64,000 nt of DNA, taken from Promethearchaeota archaeon (GTDB lineage: Archaea > Asgardarchaeota > Lokiarchaeia > Sigyniarchaeales > SOKP01). The notes below the pieces were generated by a model. That model ran no database searches, had not been told where the DNA came from, and saw nothing but the letters and a program-made list of their open reading frames with translations. Made by a program: the position numbers and the translations under genes. The stretch lies in the NCBI GenBank assembly GCA_019058445.1, contig JAHPZA010000006.1:832001-896000 (forward strand). The letters run 5' to 3'. Of this stretch, positions 28,514 to 46,094 are shown in pieces; within the stretch, counting starts at the first letter, position 1; every line of letters starts with the position of its first letter.

Positions 28514-29059
28514 TTATATCTTGTTTGATGCTTTTAAAATTGCTAACACTGTGTCTTTGAAGACATCTTCAACTTTTAATCCATCTTTAGCACTTGTTTC
28601 ATAATATGAGAGTGCTTGTAATTCGTTTTTTAAAGATTCACCATCTTGTAACGCTACCTCTCTGTTGCCTGATTCAGCTAAATCTAATTTATTTCCCACT
28701 AAAATGCTGGGTCTTCCCGCTACAACTTTTTCCACTTCAGTTTTCCAATTAAGTAGATTAGAAAATGAACTCCTTCGAGTTAAATCAAACACATATATGA
28801 TCCCTGTAGCACCCCGATAAAAGGGTGGACGAACAAAAGAGAAATGTTTTTGACCCGCTAAATCCCAAATTTGTAACTTGATGTTATATTGAGGAAATTC
28901 AGCTAATTCTACAGATTTAGTAGAGAAATTACTTCCTATTGTCATTATATAATTCTCTTTAAATGAATTCTCAGTATATCTCAATACCATTGAAGTTTTT
29001 CCGACTCCACCATCGCCTACAACGCATATTTTATATATGAAACTTTTCGAGGCAGACAT
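28514..29059 (-). CDS. Rab-like small GTPase (eukaryotic signature protein)
   Basis: G1 GDGGVGKT, G2 YIMTIG, G3 WDLAGQ, FYRGA, G4 NKLD, G5 SAK; no C-terminal prenylation Cys. Confidence 0.93.
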   Translation of the reverse strand: MSASKSFIYKICVVGDGGVGKTSMVLRYTENSFKENYIMTIGSNFSTKSVELAEFPQYNIKLQIWDLAGQKHFSFVRPPFYRGATGIIYVFDLTRRSSFSNLLNWKTEVEKVVAGRPSILVGNKLDLAESGNREVALQDGESLKNELQALSYYETSAKDGLKVEDVFKDTVLAILKASNKI

Positions 29060-29142: not shown

Positions 29143-29937
29143 TTGCAATTATTGGTATTATTTATGAGTTCCCTCGAAGATAAAATTGAAAAATTAAGCC
29201 AACTCATTATTGATTCTAAAAATATTGTAATTTTAACGGGAGCGGGAATGAGTACTGAATCTGGTATTCCAGACTTTAGAAGCCCGGATACTGGCCTATG
29301 GAACAAAGTAGATCCTGAAAAATATGCTACGATACACTCTTACGTCGCAAATCCCGGAAGGAATTTGAAAATGATGCTTGATTTGGGAACGAAGATTTTT
29401 AGGGCAAAACCAAATAAAGGCCATAAAGCTATAACTAAACTCCAAAAAATGGGAAAATTAATAGGAGTTCTTACTCAAAATGTTGATGGTTTGCATCAAA
29501 AGGCTCGTACTCAGAATGTTGTTGAGTTACATGGAACAGTGAATGAAGCTAAATGTATGAGATGTAAGCGTGTTTTTCCTATAACAGAGATGATAAATCA
29601 AGTAATGAAAGGAGCTATGAATCCTTCCTGTGGGATATGTTTTGGATTATTAAAACCAAACGCTATATTTTTTGGAGAACCTTTAGAATCTGAGAAACTT
29701 ATGAAAGCAGATGAAATGATTGCGAAATGTGATCTTTTGATCGTACTAGGAAGTTCCTTATTAGTCTATCCAGTTGCGTTTTATCCTCGCAAAGCGTTAT
29801 CCTTAGGAGCTAAATTAGCTATCATAAATATCCAAGAGACTGATTTAGATGATGATGCAGAAGTCGTAATACACAAAAAAATTGGGGACACATTGCCAAA
29901 AATAATTGAGTTAGTCGAAAAGAGAATTAATGCATGA
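29143..29937 (+). CDS. cobB: NAD-dependent protein deacylase (sirtuin)
   Basis: GAGMSTESGIPDFRS, TQNVDGLH, ELHG, CMRC/CGIC, GSSLLVYP; likely start MSSLED at 29164. Confidence 0.93.
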   Translation: MQLLVLFMSSLEDKIEKLSQLIIDSKNIVILTGAGMSTESGIPDFRSPDTGLWNKVDPEKYATIHSYVANPGRNLKMMLDLGTKIFRAKPNKGHKAITKLQKMGKLIGVLTQNVDGLHQKARTQNVVELHGTVNEAKCMRCKRVFPITEMINQVMKGAMNPSCGICFGLLKPNAIFFGEPLESEKLMKADEMIAKCDLLIVLGSSLLVYPVAFYPRKALSLGAKLAIINIQETDLDDDAEVVIHKKIGDTLPKIIELVEKRINA

Positions 29938-30029: not shown

Positions 30030-31769
30030 TTATTTTCGTAGTACTTTCTTATCAACCTTGCCTACAGCAGTAAGAGGAATCTCTTCCATGATATGAACTT
30101 TTTTGGGAACCTCGTAAGGAGAACACTTCTCTTTGGCGTAATTTACGATATCTTCTTGTAATTTTTCTTCGTTTCCATCATATTCGAATTCGGGATCAAG
30201 TTGAATGTATGCGTTTACAATTTCAGAACCCGGACGGTCGGGATTAGGTTCTCCAATAAGAGCAATCATCCCTATTGCTGGATGTTCGGCTAAAACGTCC
30301 TCGACTTTACTAGAGAATACTTTAAAACCACCAACAATGATCATATCTTTTGTACGATCCACGATTTTTAAGTATCCATCTTCGCCTATGAGTGCTACAT
30401 CTCCCGTGTGCATATATCCATCCGCATCAATAGCTTTTTTGGTTTCTTCAGGTTTGTTGTAATATCCTTGCATGACTAATGGCCCCTTTACACAGATTTC
30501 TCCTGGTTCTCCTATAGGTACCACCTCTCCTGTGTCTGGATCAATTATTTTTAATTCTACGTTCTGAATAGGCATTCCAATCGTACCTAATTTCTTTTCT
30601 CCTAAGGAAGGATTCATTGTTGAGACCGGAGATGTCTCCGTCATCCCATATAACTCTAATAGCTTGCCTTCCCCTATTATACTCTCTAATTCTACTTGAG
30701 ATTCTTTAGGAAACGGAGACGCGGCTGAGATACACGTTCCTAAGTCGGAATGATCCAAATCTTTAAACTTAGGGTTTTTGATTAGCATTTGATATAAGGA
30801 AGGAACGTTAACTAAATTGGTTGGATGGTATTTCTTCATCTCTTTTACGATATGGTTTGTATCTCTCGGGTTTGGAATTTATACTAGAGAGACGCATGTT
30901 CTCTCAATTAATATTTGCGTCCACCCGAAGTATACGGCACTTTCGGCGACCGTTAATCCGGCTATGTGAAACATAGGGAACCCAGAGCATAAAACACCTT
31001 TTCCAAATTCCCATTGAAGCCACTCTGAAATGCTTAAAATATTAGACGCGACATTTCTATGAGTTAACATAGCTCCTTTTGGCGGACCCGTCGTCCCTCC
31101 AGTATATTGAATCCAACCTATATCGTCTGGAGTTAATTTAACGTCTGGTGGATCAGAAGAGAATTCTCCTTTTAATACATCCTTGTGGAAATCTAGTACA
31201 GTTTTTCCCTCTAAAGGTGTGACTTTTCCCTTTGGTATTTTACCTAAAGCTTTACCAAGCACTTGAATTACTTTTGGCAAGAACGACCCGACACTTGTGG
31301 TAATAATAAGTTTGGTTGAACCTAATTTTGAAGCAATTTTTGTAATGTGCCCCGCAAAAATTGCATCTAATGTCACCAACGCTACTTGTTTTCCCCCTGA
31401 ACCTAGATCGTTTAACTGATATTCGATCTGTAGGGCAGACAGAAGGGGCGAGACACCTGAAATTATGCATCCCGCACGTAGAGCGCCAATTAATGAAACT
31501 ATATACTCAATAGTATTTGGTAAATTGATACCAACGACATCTCCCTTTTTAAAGCCATTTGCGACGAGCATATTTGCAAATTTATTGGCCATTTCGTCTA
31601 ATTCTTTGAATGTTATTTCAACGCCTAAATACGCTAACGCGATTTTATCTGGATAATTCTGAAACGCTTTCTTAATCATGTCAACGTAGGTCGTTTCGAA
31701 TTCTTTAGGATCTAAGTCCTTAACGTGCGGATCCCAATTTTTCTTCCAAAATTTATCACTATACGACAT
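30030..31769 (-). CDS. fadD: Long-chain fatty acid-CoA ligase 1; two exons (31769-30909 and 30878-30030), 569 aa after splicing
   Basis: Exon 1 has YTGGTTGPPKG and PMFHIAG; exon 2 has YGMTET, GEICVKGP, TGD, DRTKDMI, GKVDKK; removing 30879-30908 gives continuous GWTQILIPNPRD. Confidence 0.88.
30879..30908 (-). other. Putative 30-nt BHB-type mRNA intron
   Basis: mRNA: AA[AUAU](UA^A)UUGAGAGA-acaugcg-UCUCUCUA[GUAU](AA^A)UU; 4-bp central helix, two 3-nt bulges; excision restores frame; ends in in-frame UAA. Confidence 0.8.
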
Positions 31770-32923: not shown

Positions 32924-34063
32924 TCAAGAATTATTAATTTTTACATTCCTTTCTCTTAAAATCTTTATTGAACTATTAAAAGCATTAAAATTTTCTAAAT
33001 TTATCCAAAGTCTTTTTAATGAATAAAAATAGGTAAGCGAATCAGGGAGTTTTCTGAAATTATTAAAACTTATATCTAATTCTTCAAGCGAATTAAGATC
33101 TGATATTGAAGCTGGTAAGTTTAGTAAATTGTTTGATCTTAGACCAAGCTTTTTAATTGACACAAGATTTCCCATAGATTCTGGCAATTCTGTCAAATTG
33201 TTAAAATTCAAGATCAAAGTATGAAGTGTTTTGATATTTCCTATGGAACTAGGAAGATATATGAGATTATTCCTATTTAAAAATAACTCTTTTAACTGAC
33301 CAAAATCACCTATAGTATCTGGAAGAGTCTCTAACTGATTCCATCCGAGATTTAAAGATTCTAGTGAATCTAATTCTATAACAATCTCGGGAAATACTTT
33401 AAATTGATTAGAAAATAAATCTAAAGATCTTAATGAACACAGATTTAAAAAAGTATCTGGTATGACACTTAATTGATTCCTTCCTAGTAAAAGCTCTTTA
33501 AGAGAAGTAAGCGAATCTAATCTATCAATTTTTGCCAAATTATCAATATATCTATTTCGCAAATCTAATCTATTATTTAATACAATTCCATAAATTTTCC
33601 CTTTGAATAATACATAATCTAATCCAATTTCGTCCAGTATTGGTTTTAGCTCTCTTGTAGTAAAATTATTATATATTGGATCTTGGAGTAAATAACTTAC
33701 ATCATCAAGAGAATTATTTCTAATTTTGACTATAATCTCATTTTTAAATGTCTTTCTTGCAATCGTATCTCCTTTATTGGAAAGCTCTTCTAATATAGGA
33801 AATGCTAACTCTGATTGTAATAAATTGATATTATACTTGTTATCGACCCATTTTTTAAGTCTCTGATAAAAATATCTAAAAATTTCAACATTTGTGAGAC
33901 TTTCGATTGAAAATATATCAGAATCTATTAATCTAACTAAATCTTCTATAAAAAGTAAACCTTTAATGAATAAATTTATATTATTGCCTACCAACTTAAG
34001 AGTAATTAAATCATTAACTTTTTTACTTATAATACCATTAGACATAATTGAGTCTGATTTCAA
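32924..34063 (-). CDS. Leucine-rich repeat protein with Lokiarchaeia-type N-terminal domain
   Basis: About eight 23-aa LxxLxLxxNxLxxLP repeats; N-domain shared with 38496-39785. Confidence 0.9.
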   Translation of the reverse strand: MKSDSIMSNGIISKKVNDLITLKLVGNNINLFIKGLLFIEDLVRLIDSDIFSIESLTNVEIFRYFYQRLKKWVDNKYNINLLQSELAFPILEELSNKGDTIARKTFKNEIIVKIRNNSLDDVSYLLQDPIYNNFTTRELKPILDEIGLDYVLFKGKIYGIVLNNRLDLRNRYIDNLAKIDRLDSLTSLKELLLGRNQLSVIPDTFLNLCSLRSLDLFSNQFKVFPEIVIELDSLESLNLGWNQLETLPDTIGDFGQLKELFLNRNNLIYLPSSIGNIKTLHTLILNFNNLTELPESMGNLVSIKKLGLRSNNLLNLPASISDLNSLEELDISFNNFRKLPDSLTYFYSLKRLWINLENFNAFNSSIKILRERNVKINNS

Positions 34064-44340: not shown

Positions 44341-46094
44341 TTATTTTCGTAAAAGTTTCTTGTCAACCTTTCCAACAGCAGTCAATGGGAGCTCTTCTAT
44401 GATTTTAATTTTCTTCGGGACTTCATATGGAGCACATTGCTCCTTTGCAAATACAATGATACTTTCTTTTAACGCCTCTTCATTTCCGTCATATTCATAG
44501 TTAGGGTCTAGCTGAATATAGGCATTTACAATTTCAGAGCCCGGGCGATCGGGATTCGGTTCACCTATTAGTGCCATACTTCCAATCGCAGGATGTTTGG
44601 TTAATGTGTCTTCTACCTTAGATGAGAAAACTTTGAAACCCCCTACAATTATCATATCCTTGGTACGGTCTACAATACGTATATATCCATCCTCATCCAT
44701 CATTCCCACATCACCGCTGTGCATATATCCATCCGCATCAATCGCTTTTTTGGTTTCTTCAGGTTTGTTGTAATAACCCTGCATGACTAATGGACCTTTT
44801 ACGCAAATCTCTCCAGCTTCTCCCAAGGGTACTGCTTTTCCAGTTTCTGGATCAACAATCTTTAAGTCAACATTCTGAATAGGCATTCCAACTGTACCTA
44901 ATTTTCTTTCTCCTTTCGAAGGATTCATTGTTGCAACGGGGGACAGTTCGGTCATTCCGTATAATTCCAATAATTTTCCCTTTCCTACTATACTTTCTAA
45001 TTGTATCTGAGATTCGATGGGGAAAGGAGATGCTGCAGAAATACAGACTTCTAAAGTTGAGTGATCCAACCTTTTGAATTTTTTGAAATTTATTAGAATC
45101 TGATATAGGGAAGGTACATTCACAAGTCCAGAAGGTTTGTACTGTTTAATTTGATTACATATGGACAAAGCGTTTCGTGGGTCCTGCATTAGACGAATCG
45201 TCTTAATTAATCAGGCACGAGACACTGGGTCCAACCCAGATAAATAAAACTCTCACAAACAGTTAAACCTGCAATATGGAAGAAAGGAAAACCTGATAAT
45301 GCTGTTCCCACTCCCCATTCCCAATTAAGCCATGACCGAATAGACATAATGTTAGAAATTGTATTTCTATGGCTTATCATTGCTCCTTTGGGAGGTCCTG
45401 TGGTGCCTCCAGTATATTGAATAAATGCAATATTGTCGGGAGAAATCTCTACATTCGGCGGATCAGTTGGATATTTTGCAAAAACGTCATCATGAATATC
45501 TAATACAGTTTTTCCCTCTAAAGGTGTGACTTCTCCCGAAGGAATTTCCTGAACAGCTTTAATTTTTTCCTGTTGTTCTTTTGGAAAGATCCCAATAACG
45601 CTGGTGGTTAAGACAAGTTTTAATTGAGGGCATTTCGAAGCGATTTTAACCAATCTTCCCGCAAAAATTGCATCTAAAGTTATCAATGCAACATTTTTTC
45701 CACCCTCTCCTAAGTCGTTTATTTGGTATTGCATTTGAATCTCCGACATGAGAGGAGAAACTCCTGAAAGGATACATCCTGCTCTCAATATACCTACGAG
45801 GGCAATAACATATTCTGGAATATTAGGTAAATTTACTGCTACAACATCCCCTTTTTTAAATCCATGGTCAATTAATGCATTTGCTAACGAATTTGCGTAT
45901 TTATCCAGCTGCCCATATGTAACTTCTAAACCTTGAAATGCTAAAGCAACTTTATCGGGAACTTCTTTAAATGTCCGTTCTATTCCTTTTACATATGTGG
46001 TGTCGAATTCCTTTGGATCGATATCGTGAACATCAGAATCCCAATTTTTTTTCCAAAAACGGCTAGCATAAATTTCTTCTGCCATATTTATCAC
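44341..46094 (-). CDS. fadD: Long-chain fatty acid-CoA ligase 2; two exons (46094-45210 and 45180-44341), ~574 aa after splicing
   Basis: Same motifs as ligase 1; removing 45181-45209 gives continuous GWTQCLVPDPRNA. Confidence 0.88.
45181..45209 (-). other. Putative 29-nt BHB-type mRNA intron
   Basis: mRNA: UCGUG[CCUG](AU^U)AAUUAAGACG-auu-CGUCUAAUG[CAGG](AC^C)CACGA; perfect 5-bp outer and 4-bp central helices; excision repairs both stop and frameshift. Confidence 0.85.

What the first reader, a model, noticed from the sequence alone, without database searches (positions are those of the whole stretch)
30860..30930. Intron 1: 30-nt in-frame insert ending in UAA, framed by an exon-exon stem
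The minus strand reads TTC GGG TGG ACG CAA ATA TTA | ATTGAGAGAACATGCGTCTCTCTAGTATAA | ATT CCA AAC CCG AGA. The central helix is AUAU/GUAU (one G-U) and the bulges are UAA and AAA. The inner stem is U-A, a U/U mismatch, then GAGAGA/UCUCUC. The outer pairing is AA/UU, extended by UGG/CCA and UCGGG/CCCGA. The proximal outer helix is only 2 bp, so this BHB is weaker than intron 2, but the predicted cuts remove exactly 30 nt including the stop.
Basis: partly seen in the sequence, partly recalled or inferred. Interest (0 to 1): 0.85.

Follow-up and report, generated by a model that had tools for sequence, protein, structure and literature searches.

The report
tRNA-type mini-intron in Asgard ligase gene
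A 30-base insert carrying a stop codon breaks an acyl-CoA synthetase gene of a Lokiarchaeon (Asgard archaea), and its fold, its conservation in a distant relative and the strong protein-level selection on the gene downstream all indicate that it is cut out of the mRNA by the tRNA-splicing machinery, which has been published for very few archaeal protein genes.

Summary
Window 30879-30908 (minus strand) is an exact 30-nt in-frame insert ending in UAA. It splits an AMP-forming acyl-CoA synthetase gene at QIL|IPNPRD, a stretch that is contiguous in about 100 homologues.

The BHB-intron reading is supported by comparison, not by RNA data.
- An independent metagenome contig (L092) carries the same insert at the same site, 28/30 identical, although the exons are only 77% identical and synonymous sites are saturated.
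- One of its two differences turns the U/U mismatch into a G-U pair. In L092 the 4-bp helix, UAA bulge and 8-bp hairpin form the minimum-energy fold.
- Exon 2, which lies behind the stop, has dN/dS 0.04.
- The 13 codons between the stop and the next ATG differ by five synonymous changes and one conservative replacement.

In G000 the rival extended helix dominates the predicted ensemble, and the outer helix is weak, so this is a relaxed BHB.

The genome holds a class of 26-32-nt inserts with the same geometry. One lies in single-copy aIF2-gamma and covaries across seven genomes. EndA and RtcB are present.

No transcript data for this organism could be obtained. The scan has reported similar introns before, in this genome and in a Jordarchaeia genome.

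The parts
30879..30908 (-). The 30-nt intron: 1 bulge nt, a 23-nt inner hairpin, the 4-nt 3' strand of the central helix, and 2 bulge nt.
   Evidence: Absent from all orthologues in related genomes and from 78 of 80 metagenome homologues (the other two are L092, which carries the insert, and L163, whose locus ends just past the junction). Present at the same site in L092.
30879..30881 (-). In-frame UAA, the last three bases of the intron. It would truncate the protein at 296 aa if the intron is not removed.
   Evidence: ORF list and translation.
30911..30914 (-). 5' strand of the central 4-bp helix (AUAU), in exon 1 (Ile-Leu codons ATA TTA).
   Evidence: Pairs with GUAU at 30881-30884. The intron-bearing relative has the same codons; intron-less orthologues use ATT CTC, ATA CTC or ATC CTT.
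30908..30910 (-). 5' bulge UAA. The predicted cut lies after its second nucleotide, between 30909 and 30908.
   Evidence: The canonical BHB cut rule restores QIL|IPNPRD. This bulge is unpaired in the MFE of the L092 homologue.
30885..30907 (-). Inner hairpin (h'): U-A, a U/U mismatch, a 6-bp GAGAGA/UCUCUC stem, and a 7-nt loop.
   Evidence: Folds. In L092 the U/U position is a G-U pair, giving 8 continuous pairs.
30881..30884 (-). 3' strand of the central helix (GUAU), inside the intron.
30878..30880 (-). 3' bulge AAA. The predicted cut lies after its second nucleotide, between 30879 and 30878.
   Evidence: These bases are unpaired in all predicted folds.
30915..30916 (-). Proximal outer helix, 5' strand (AA). 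It pairs with UU at 30876-30877 only in the canonical BHB conformer.
   Evidence: Pair probability 0.001-0.002 in G000. This is the weakest element.
30920..30929 (-). Distal exon-exon helix, 5' strand (UUCGGGUGGA).
   Evidence: Paired with 30865-30876 in the MFE of both G000 and L092. Identical in the two intron-bearing alleles and different in the intron-less sisters.
30865..30876 (-). Distal exon-exon helix, 3' strand (UCC..ACCCGAG), in exon 2.
30909..31769 (-). Exon 1 (287 codons): N-terminal part of the AMP-binding domain, including the P-loop.
   Evidence: Pfam PF00501, profile positions 3-240.
30030..30878 (-). Exon 2 (282 codons plus stop): the rest of the AMP-binding domain and AMP-binding_C.
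   Evidence: Pfam PF00501 positions 242-384 and PF13193. dN/dS is 0.037 against L092.

Best explanation
Window 30879-30908 (minus strand) is an archaeal bulge-helix-bulge (tRNA-type) mini-intron inside the mRNA of an AMP-forming acyl-CoA synthetase of a Lokiarchaeon.

Proposed mechanism. In the pre-mRNA, four exon bases (AUAU) pair with four intron bases (GUAU). This helix is flanked by a 3-nt bulge (UAA) leading into a 23-nt intron hairpin, and on the other strand by an unpaired AAA next to a weak or displaced exon-exon helix. That is a relaxed BHB of the H-B-h' type. The splicing endonuclease EndA cuts after the second nucleotide of each bulge, and RtcB joins the exons. The result is an uninterrupted 569-codon reading frame and, presumably, a 30-nt circular intron.

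Shown here: the insert, its exact boundaries, the fold geometry, its conservation, selection on the downstream exon, and the presence of EndA and RtcB. Inferred: the cleavage and ligation themselves.
For: 1. Boundaries. Removal restores QIL|IPNPRD, which is contiguous in all orthologues of related genomes and in 78 of 80 metagenome homologues; the other two are L092, which carries the insert, and L163, whose locus ends just past the junction. The Pfam profile is continuous across the break.

2. Geometry. The canonical register is the only one of five product-equivalent registers with a 4/4 central helix. The chance of such a fit is 0.35-0.65%. The site ranks second genome-wide by BHB-constrained energy.

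3. Homologous intron in L092, from an independent JGI metagenome.
- The intron is 28/30 identical, while the exons are 76.7% identical and third codon positions about 49% identical.
- One difference converts U/U to G-U in the stem; the other lies in the loop.
- In L092 the helix, UAA bulge and 8-bp hairpin are both the MFE and the centroid.

4. The gene is alive.
- Exon 2 has dN 0.10, dS 2.7 and dN/dS 0.037.
- The 13 codons between the UAA and the next ATG differ by 5 synonymous changes and one V->I change.

5. Class evidence.
- The top-ranked ORF-restoring BHB candidates split conserved motifs: aIF2-gamma GHVDHG|KTT, ChlI NPE|EGELRPQ and a Sir2-like ELHG|N. EF-2 came from the earlier looser scan.
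- aIF2-gamma is single-copy. Its frameshifting insert occurs in 7 genomes of 6 genera.
- In that intron, 11 of 18 consensus pairs show compensatory changes, including the exon-intron change AUGG/CCAU -> ACGG/CCGU.

6. Machinery and context.
- EndA and an intact RtcB are encoded.
- ARAGORN finds only 5 uninterrupted tRNA genes. This fits the intron-rich Asgard lineages described in preprint 10.64898/2026.10.13.758758.
- The literature states that Asgard EndA is of a broad-specificity type (PMC5829648).
Against: - There is no RNA evidence. The metatranscriptome runs contain only short pieces of relatives' genes.
- In G000 the canonical BHB is disfavoured in silico: -15.4 against -24.1 kcal/mol, and the extended 6-bp helix has probability above 0.9.
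- The proximal outer helix is only two A-U pairs. The 3' cut site lies in a 5x4 internal loop rather than a clean bulge.
- No EndA beta subunit was found with PF01974 or PF02778. The single EndA found is closest to the strict-specificity M. jannaschii enzyme.
- Comparative support for this particular intron rests on one other sequence.
Confidence: 0.8

Rival explanations
1. Split gene. The insert divides the enzyme into two separately translated polypeptides, one of 296 aa ending at the UAA and one of 269 aa starting at ATG 30839, which assemble into an active enzyme.
For: Both ORFs are intact, and an ATG lies 13 codons behind the insert. Purifying selection on exon 2 would also be expected under this reading.
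Against: The 13 codons between the stop and that ATG evolve like coding sequence, with 5 synonymous changes and 1 conservative change against L092. They encode the family motif IPNPRD, which a product starting at the ATG would lack. The Met is equally conserved in intron-less orthologues. This reading does not explain the conserved hairpin and helix geometry, nor the same-geometry insert in the P-loop of aIF2-gamma.
Confidence: 0.05
2. Translational bypassing (hopping), as in T4 gene 60 or the mitochondrial byp elements. The ribosome takes off at a codon before the hairpin and lands on a matching codon 30 nt downstream.
For: In G000 the insert begins with AUU and exon 2 begins with AUU, and a hairpin follows the take-off site. 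In intron 2, GAU is followed by UAA and a GAC lies before the resume codon.
Against: In L092 the insert begins with AUG, not AUU, so the codon match is not conserved. In aIF2-gamma no GGN landing codon precedes the resume codon. Bypassing does not require a 4-bp helix with 3-nt bulges at fixed distances, yet that geometry is what is conserved and covaries.
Confidence: 0.04
3. Recently inactivated pseudogene. A small palindromic insertion with a 4-bp AATT target-site-like duplication killed the gene.
For: There is an in-frame stop and an AATT direct repeat at both ends. The insert is absent from the closest sequenced relatives G002, G008 and G003.
Against: The same insert is kept in a lineage whose exons have diverged by 23%, with saturated synonymous sites. 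No further lesion occurs in 569 codons, and exon 2 has dN/dS 0.037. The intron is far better conserved (93%) than synonymous sites (~49%). The repeat shrinks to AAT in L092 and follows from the palindromic AUAU helix plus A-rich bulges. No other copy of the insert exists in the genome.
Confidence: 0.03
4. The insert is removed from the RNA, but by an enzyme other than EndA: an unknown structure-specific nuclease paired with RtcB, analogous to IRE1 with XBP1/HAC1.
For: The class has a strikingly uniform size of mostly 29-30 nt with a 22-23-nt hairpin, and a weak outer helix. Neither feature is required by EndA. The G000 EndA looks like the strict alpha4 type.
Against: The conserved elements are exactly the EndA recognition elements: a 4-bp helix, 3-nt bulges, and cuts after the second bulge nucleotide. 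No candidate alternative enzyme was identified.
Confidence: 0.06
5. Stop-codon readthrough yields a protein with a 10-residue insertion.
For: The insert is in frame, at 30 nt.
Against: Both nucleotide differences from L092 change the insert-encoded peptide (I->M, V->I), and there is no synonymous change. Sister members of the class are 29 nt long and shift the frame. No homologue has residues at this position.
Confidence: 0.02

Closest known systems
cbf5 pre-mRNA BHB intron of Crenarchaeota (Watanabe et al. 2002; Yokobori et al. 2009, PMC2738675)
   Same: Both are short introns in a protein-coding gene with bulge-helix-bulge geometry at the exon-intron junctions. Both are presumed to be removed by the tRNA-splicing endonuclease and ligase. 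Both are patchily distributed among related species, indicating gain and loss.
   Different: The host differs (Asgard/Lokiarchaeon rather than Crenarchaeota) and so does the gene (a metabolic acyl-CoA synthetase). This intron is a 30-nt in-frame intron ending in a stop codon. It is one of many same-geometry inserts in a single genome. Splicing has not been shown experimentally here, whereas it has for cbf5.
[quoted passage not shown]
   Same: The recognition structure and cut rule are the same. The lineages are the same intron-rich ones, and gains are lineage-specific. This genome has only 5 uninterrupted tRNA genes detectable.
   Different: The substrate is an mRNA coding region, so the reading frame must be restored exactly. 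The intron is not in a tRNA scaffold that could help the enzyme dock.
HVO_1309 mRNA cleavage by EndA in Haloferax volcanii (PMC7714728)
   Same: It is an mRNA substrate of the archaeal splicing endonuclease, demonstrated in vivo and in vitro.
   Different: HVO_1309 is the only additional mRNA substrate that paper reports. I did not read where its BHB lies in the transcript. Here the insert interrupts a conserved protein motif within the coding sequence.
XBP1/HAC1 unconventional splicing (IRE1 plus RtcB) in eukaryotes
   Same: A 20-30-nt intron is removed from a coding region by a structure-specific endonuclease and an RtcB-type ligase, independently of the spliceosome. Removal changes which protein is made. 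This comparison rests on my own knowledge of that system.
   Different: The nuclease and recognition motif differ (twin stem-loops there). That system is regulated by stress, and no regulation is shown here.

Membership tests
Archaeal BHB intron (EndA/RtcB-spliced) | A central 4-bp helix flanked by two 3-nt bulges on opposite strands. | tested here: met
   AUAU/GUAU with bulges UAA and AAA is present in the only register with 4/4 pairs. In G000 it is not the MFE. In the homologous intron of L092 the helix and 5' bulge are the MFE and centroid.
Archaeal BHB intron (EndA/RtcB-spliced) | Cuts after the second nucleotide of each bulge give a functional ligated product. | tested here: met
   The rule removes exactly 30879-30908 and restores QIL|IPNPRD, as found in all intron-less homologues.
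Archaeal BHB intron (EndA/RtcB-spliced) | Flanking helices h (exon-exon) and h' (intron) lie adjacent to the bulges (strict hBHBh'). | tested here: inconclusive
   h' has 7 of 8 pairs in G000 and 8 of 8 in L092. h is only two A-U pairs, which compete with a displaced GGA/UCC helix, so the 3' site lies in an internal loop. This fits the relaxed H-B-h' type, not the strict form.
Archaeal BHB intron (EndA/RtcB-spliced) | The host encodes the splicing endonuclease and the RtcB ligase. | tested here: met
   EndA is at G000:C9:770313-770918 (PF01974 at 68 bits, PF02778 at 29 bits). RtcB is at C1:114713-116020 with an intact frame. No beta subunit was found with these models.
Archaeal BHB intron (EndA/RtcB-spliced) | The structure is conserved or covaries in homologous introns. 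| tested here: met
   For this intron there is one homologue, 28/30 identical, whose single stem change restores a pair. For the sister class member in aIF2-gamma, 11 of 18 pairs show compensatory changes across 7 genomes.
Archaeal BHB intron (EndA/RtcB-spliced) | Spliced RNA, a circular intron, or in vitro cleavage is observed. | not testable with these tools
   The four RNA runs listed by the run search (three were laid) hold only 21-50-nt pieces of relatives' genes, and no contig of this organism.
Translational bypass element (T4 gene 60 / byp) | Matching take-off and landing codons, conserved among homologues, usually with a stop right after take-off. | tested here: not met
   AUU/AUU match in G000 but AUG/AUU in L092, and no stop follows the take-off codon. 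No match exists in the aIF2-gamma member.
Pseudogene | Relaxed selection and accumulating lesions downstream of the disabling mutation. | tested here: not met
   Exon 2 has dN/dS 0.037 with saturated dS, and there is no further stop or frameshift in either intron-bearing lineage.

The most novel reading that the evidence does not exclude
This Lokiarchaeon and its relatives routinely splice protein-coding mRNAs with the tRNA-splicing machinery. A class of mostly 29-32-nt BHB micro-introns of fixed architecture interrupts dozens of genes, including essential translation factors. These introns turn over quickly. Intron 1 is present in G000 and in the metagenome lineage L092, but absent from the sister of each. 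It is also far better conserved than synonymous sites. This pattern fits either repeated loss or lateral (homing-like) spread of a specific micro-intron between lineages. In the closest prokaryotic relatives of eukaryotes, this would be a working precedent for intron-interrupted protein genes and for intron gain and loss dynamics that do not depend on group II introns or the spliceosome.
Probability: 0.5. Interest if true: 0.9.

Novelty: new variant of a known kind. Interest (0 to 1): 0.8.

Why it matters
Introns in archaeal protein-coding genes that are spliced by the tRNA endonuclease have been published essentially only for cbf5 in Crenarchaeota, plus one Haloferax mRNA substrate (PMC2738675, PMC7714728). 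I found no paper describing them in Asgard archaea.

Here a metabolic gene of a Lokiarchaeon carries such an intron. It is conserved across lineages whose synonymous sites are saturated. It belongs to a class that also interrupts single-copy aIF2-gamma, as well as EF-2.

If confirmed by RNA data, this would show that mRNA splicing is a normal part of gene expression in some Asgard archaea. It would also make intron gain, loss and possible mobility directly testable in close genome pairs that differ by single introns.

Practically, gene callers split or truncate these genes, so Asgard proteomes and completeness estimates are affected.

Tried and rejected
1. Transcript evidence. Laying three of them showed only 21-50-nt matches from relatives' genes. 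One relative's RNA contig had 186 letters where this gene has 207, which is not interpretable. There was no contig of this organism. Which X2 DNA contig bridges the intron was not listed, so independent DNA confirmation came from L092 instead.

2. My first strict genome scan required at least 3 contiguous pairs in both flanking helices. It missed this intron and gave no length peak. A mirror-pairing null was unusable because it gave more hits than real pairing.

3. Shifted-register controls for the ORF-restoring scan were flawed. Shifting the cut by a few bases still restores the frame, so those counts are not independent.

4. A motif-free indel census of 152 kb aligned between G000 and G002 found no convincing BHB intron among the 20-45-nt indels. 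The yield was too low to pursue.

5. I found no other copy of the intron core in G000 with up to 4 substitutions, no exact or flank-anchored match in genome contigs, and no Rfam family.

6. L021 (G033) looked like a third intron at the same site, but it is a truncated or rearranged gene.

7. The third paralogue flagged with '1 TAA' is intact; the stop lies upstream of its start.

8. My initial view that the intron is a recent gain unique to G000 was revised after L092 was found.
Full report
**The observation**

ORF 30879..31769 (296 aa) ends at a UAA formed by the last three bases of a 30-nt stretch, 30879-30908. The same frame continues behind it to 30030.

The two halves are the N- and C-terminal parts of one AMP-forming acyl-CoA synthetase. 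Pfam AMP-binding matches profile positions 3-240 in the first half and 242-384 in the second, followed by AMP-binding_C. Removing the 30 nt gives ...YFGWTQIL|IPNPRDTNH...

This stretch is contiguous in every orthologue and paralogue recovered from 40 related genomes. It is also contiguous in 78 of 80 metagenome homologues. So the insert and its boundaries are real. The boundaries are defined by homology to within five equivalent registers, because AATT occurs at both junctions.

**The fold**

The unconstrained fold of the 81-nt region is unusually stable: -24.1 kcal/mol, z = -4.75. However, it uses the extended helix AUAUUA/UAGUAU with the bulge shifted by two bases.

- The fully canonical BHB, with U-A closing the hairpin and AA/UU as the proximal outer helix, reaches only -15.4 kcal/mol. 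Its diagnostic pairs have probability below 0.005.
- If only the 4-bp helix is forced and the two bulges kept open, the cost is 2.2 kcal/mol.
- Other members of the class cost 0-3.1 kcal/mol under the same treatment.

Chance is nevertheless an unlikely explanation. The same insert dropped into random coding contexts of this genome gives a canonical central helix in a product-equivalent register in 4.2% of trials. It also gives at least 2 outer pairs in 0.65%, and also at least 7 of 8 inner pairs in 0.35%. Among all 28-31-nt deletions in the genome that would fuse two open frames and that have a 4-bp helix with 3-nt bulges, this site ranks second by BHB-constrained energy.

**A homologous intron elsewhere**

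A scan of JGI metagenome contigs with exon 1 found one contig, locus L092 (Ga0209976_10020776). Its orthologue carries a 30-nt insert at the same codon boundary.

- The two inserts are 28/30 identical. The exons are 76.7% identical, and third codon positions about 49% identical away from the intron.
- One difference turns the U/U mismatch of G000 into a G-U pair. The other lies in the hairpin loop.
- The exon bases that take part in the pairings (UUCGGGUGGA, AUAU, CCCGAGAG) are identical in the two intron-bearing alleles. They differ at synonymous sites in the intron-less sisters. In the 14 flanking codons, 11 of 14 third positions are identical, against 49% gene-wide. This is suggestive only.

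An independent assembly with the same insert also rules out an assembly artefact.

**The gene is under selection behind the stop**

Between G000 and L092, exon 2 has dN 0.10, dS 2.7 (saturated) and dN/dS 0.037. Exon 1 has dN 0.127 with dS beyond saturation. Neither lineage has any other stop or frameshift.

The 13 codons between the in-frame UAA and the next ATG (IPNPRDTNHIVKE) differ by five synonymous changes and one V->I replacement. They are therefore translated. This argues against a pseudogene, and against a split gene re-initiating at that ATG.

**Phylogeny**

In a maximum-likelihood tree of the orthologues, G000 is sister to intron-less G002 (support 96/90). L092 is sister to intron-less G003 (100/100), and intron-less G008 branches outside both pairs.

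The intron is therefore not a private recent gain, as I first thought. Either it is older than these splits and was lost at least twice, or it moved between lineages. The 93% identity of the intron against saturated synonymous sites fits strong structural constraint or recent transfer. Flank identity beyond about 21 nt is not elevated. I cannot decide between the two.

**A class of such inserts in this genome**

The energy-ranked scan puts conserved-motif-splitting inserts of 29-30 nt at the top.

| Gene | Location in G000 | Length | Motif split |
|---|---|---|---|
| Paralogous ligase (intron 2) | window 45181-45209 | 29 nt | LVPD\|PR |
| aIF2-gamma | C4:384841-384869 | 29 nt | GHVDHG\|KTT |
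| ChlI-like chelatase | C9:269043-269072 | 30 nt | NPE\|EGELRPQ |
| Flavoenzyme-like gene | C6:165873-165902 | 30 nt | not named |
| Sir2-like gene | C9:775863-775892 | 30 nt | ELHG\|N |

EF-2 (C10:684116-684145, 30 nt) came from the earlier, looser scan.

All share one plan: a 4-nt exon strand, a cut after two bulge bases, one bulge base, a 22-23-nt hairpin, a 4-nt intron strand, and two bulge bases. For intron 2, the 3' bulge, central helix and 5-bp outer helix are in the MFE.

aIF2-gamma is single-copy in this genome, and its insert shifts the frame inside the P-loop. Anchoring on the peptides GHVDHG and KT(T/S)L, with no structural criterion, I found an insert at that site in 7 of 29 related loci, from 6 genera, and none in 20.

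- The hairpins differ widely but stay paired.
- RNAalifold finds 11 of 18 consensus pairs with compensatory double changes.
- The canonical cut rule restores VDHGKT with a 4/4 central helix in 6 of 7 genomes.
- One of these shows an exon-intron compensatory change, AUGG/CCAU -> ACGG/CCGU.

This is strong evidence that the structure is what selection sees, and that the inserts are removed.

**Machinery and context**

The genome encodes an EndA with N- and C-terminal domains (203 aa) and an intact RtcB. The EndA is most similar to the M. jannaschii homotetramer and the M. kandleri enzyme. No beta subunit was found with the two Pfam models.

The literature assigns Asgard archaea an (alpha-beta)2 enzyme with the loop that confers broad specificity (PMC5829648). 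I could not verify that for this genome.

ARAGORN finds only 5 uninterrupted tRNA genes in this 4.6-Mb, 92.6%-complete genome. [quoted passage not shown]

**Rivals**

- *Translational bypassing.* It is suggested by AUU at both junctions. But the match is lost in L092 (AUG) and is absent in aIF2-gamma, and bypassing does not predict the conserved helix-bulge geometry.
- *Readthrough.* It cannot serve the 29-nt class members, and the insert-encoded peptide is not conserved.
- *Pseudogene and split gene.* Both are contradicted by the selection pattern.
- *Removal by a nuclease other than EndA.* This cannot be excluded.

**What is missing**

There is no RNA evidence. The only RNA runs offered contain relatives, not this organism. 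Cleavage and ligation are inferred.

**Comparison with what is known**

Mechanistically this works like the cbf5 pre-mRNA intron of Crenarchaeota and like relaxed-BHB tRNA introns. It differs in four ways: host (Asgard), gene, the uniform micro-size with a terminal stop codon, and membership of a multi-gene class.

I found no publication describing BHB introns in Asgard protein-coding genes.

Earlier agents of this scan reached similar conclusions for other inserts of this genome, in an Fe-S enzyme gene and in gyrB, and for a Jordarchaeia genome. I did not re-test those.

**Verdict**

It is a new variant of a known kind, and of high interest pending RNA confirmation.

Noticed in passing
window 45181-45209 (minus strand): The paralogous acyl-CoA synthetase (62% identical) carries a 29-nt frameshifting insert three codons downstream of the homologous position (LVPD|PR). 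It has a much stronger BHB: CCUG/CAGG central helix, UCGUG/CACGA outer helix, and bulges AUU and ACC. Its orthologues in G002 and G008 are uninterrupted.
   Followed up: partly
G000:C4:384841-384869 (L055/L062), with loci L064, L066, L068, L072, L076, L082: Single-copy aIF2-gamma is interrupted in its P-loop (GHVDHG|KTT) by a 29-nt frameshifting insert. Inserts at the same site occur in 7 genomes of 6 genera and are absent from 20. Their hairpins covary, and there is one exon-intron compensatory change.
   Followed up: yes
G000:C10:684116-684145; C9:269043-269072; C9:775863-775892; C6:165873-165902; C6:396802-396833; C6:999034-999059: Further inserts of 26-32 nt with the same geometry occur in EF-2, a ChlI-like chelatase, a Sir2-like gene, a flavoenzyme-like gene and two other genes. 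They were seen only through my own BHB-biased scan and judged by junction peptides. The last two were not checked by homology.
   Followed up: partly
whole genome G000: ARAGORN without intron mode finds only 5 tRNA genes in a 4.6-Mb genome. With introns allowed it finds 23, of which 19 have introns. Nearly all tRNA genes therefore appear to be interrupted, some probably several times.
   Followed up: no
window 29143-29937 (plus strand): A Sir2-family (sirtuin-like) ORF lies immediately downstream of the ligase gene and is convergently oriented with it. In bacteria, sirtuins deacetylate the catalytic lysine of AMP-forming acyl-CoA synthetases, so this may be a regulatory pair.
   Followed up: no
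G000:C10:652107-652775: A partial duplicate of the EF-2 gene: the C-terminal 223 aa, 97.8% identical to the full copy at C10:682049-684328.
   Followed up: no
L021 (G033:C1, around 2195261-2196109): A homologous ligase gene in a closed related genome loses similarity right after ...ILIVDP, at the position of intron 2, and runs into unrelated AT-rich sequence. It is a truncation or a larger insertion, not a mini-intron.
   Followed up: partly
window 28514-29059 (minus strand) and 32924-34063 (minus strand): A Ras/Rab-like small GTPase and a leucine-rich-repeat protein flank the locus. These are typical eukaryotic-signature genes of Asgard archaea.
   Followed up: no
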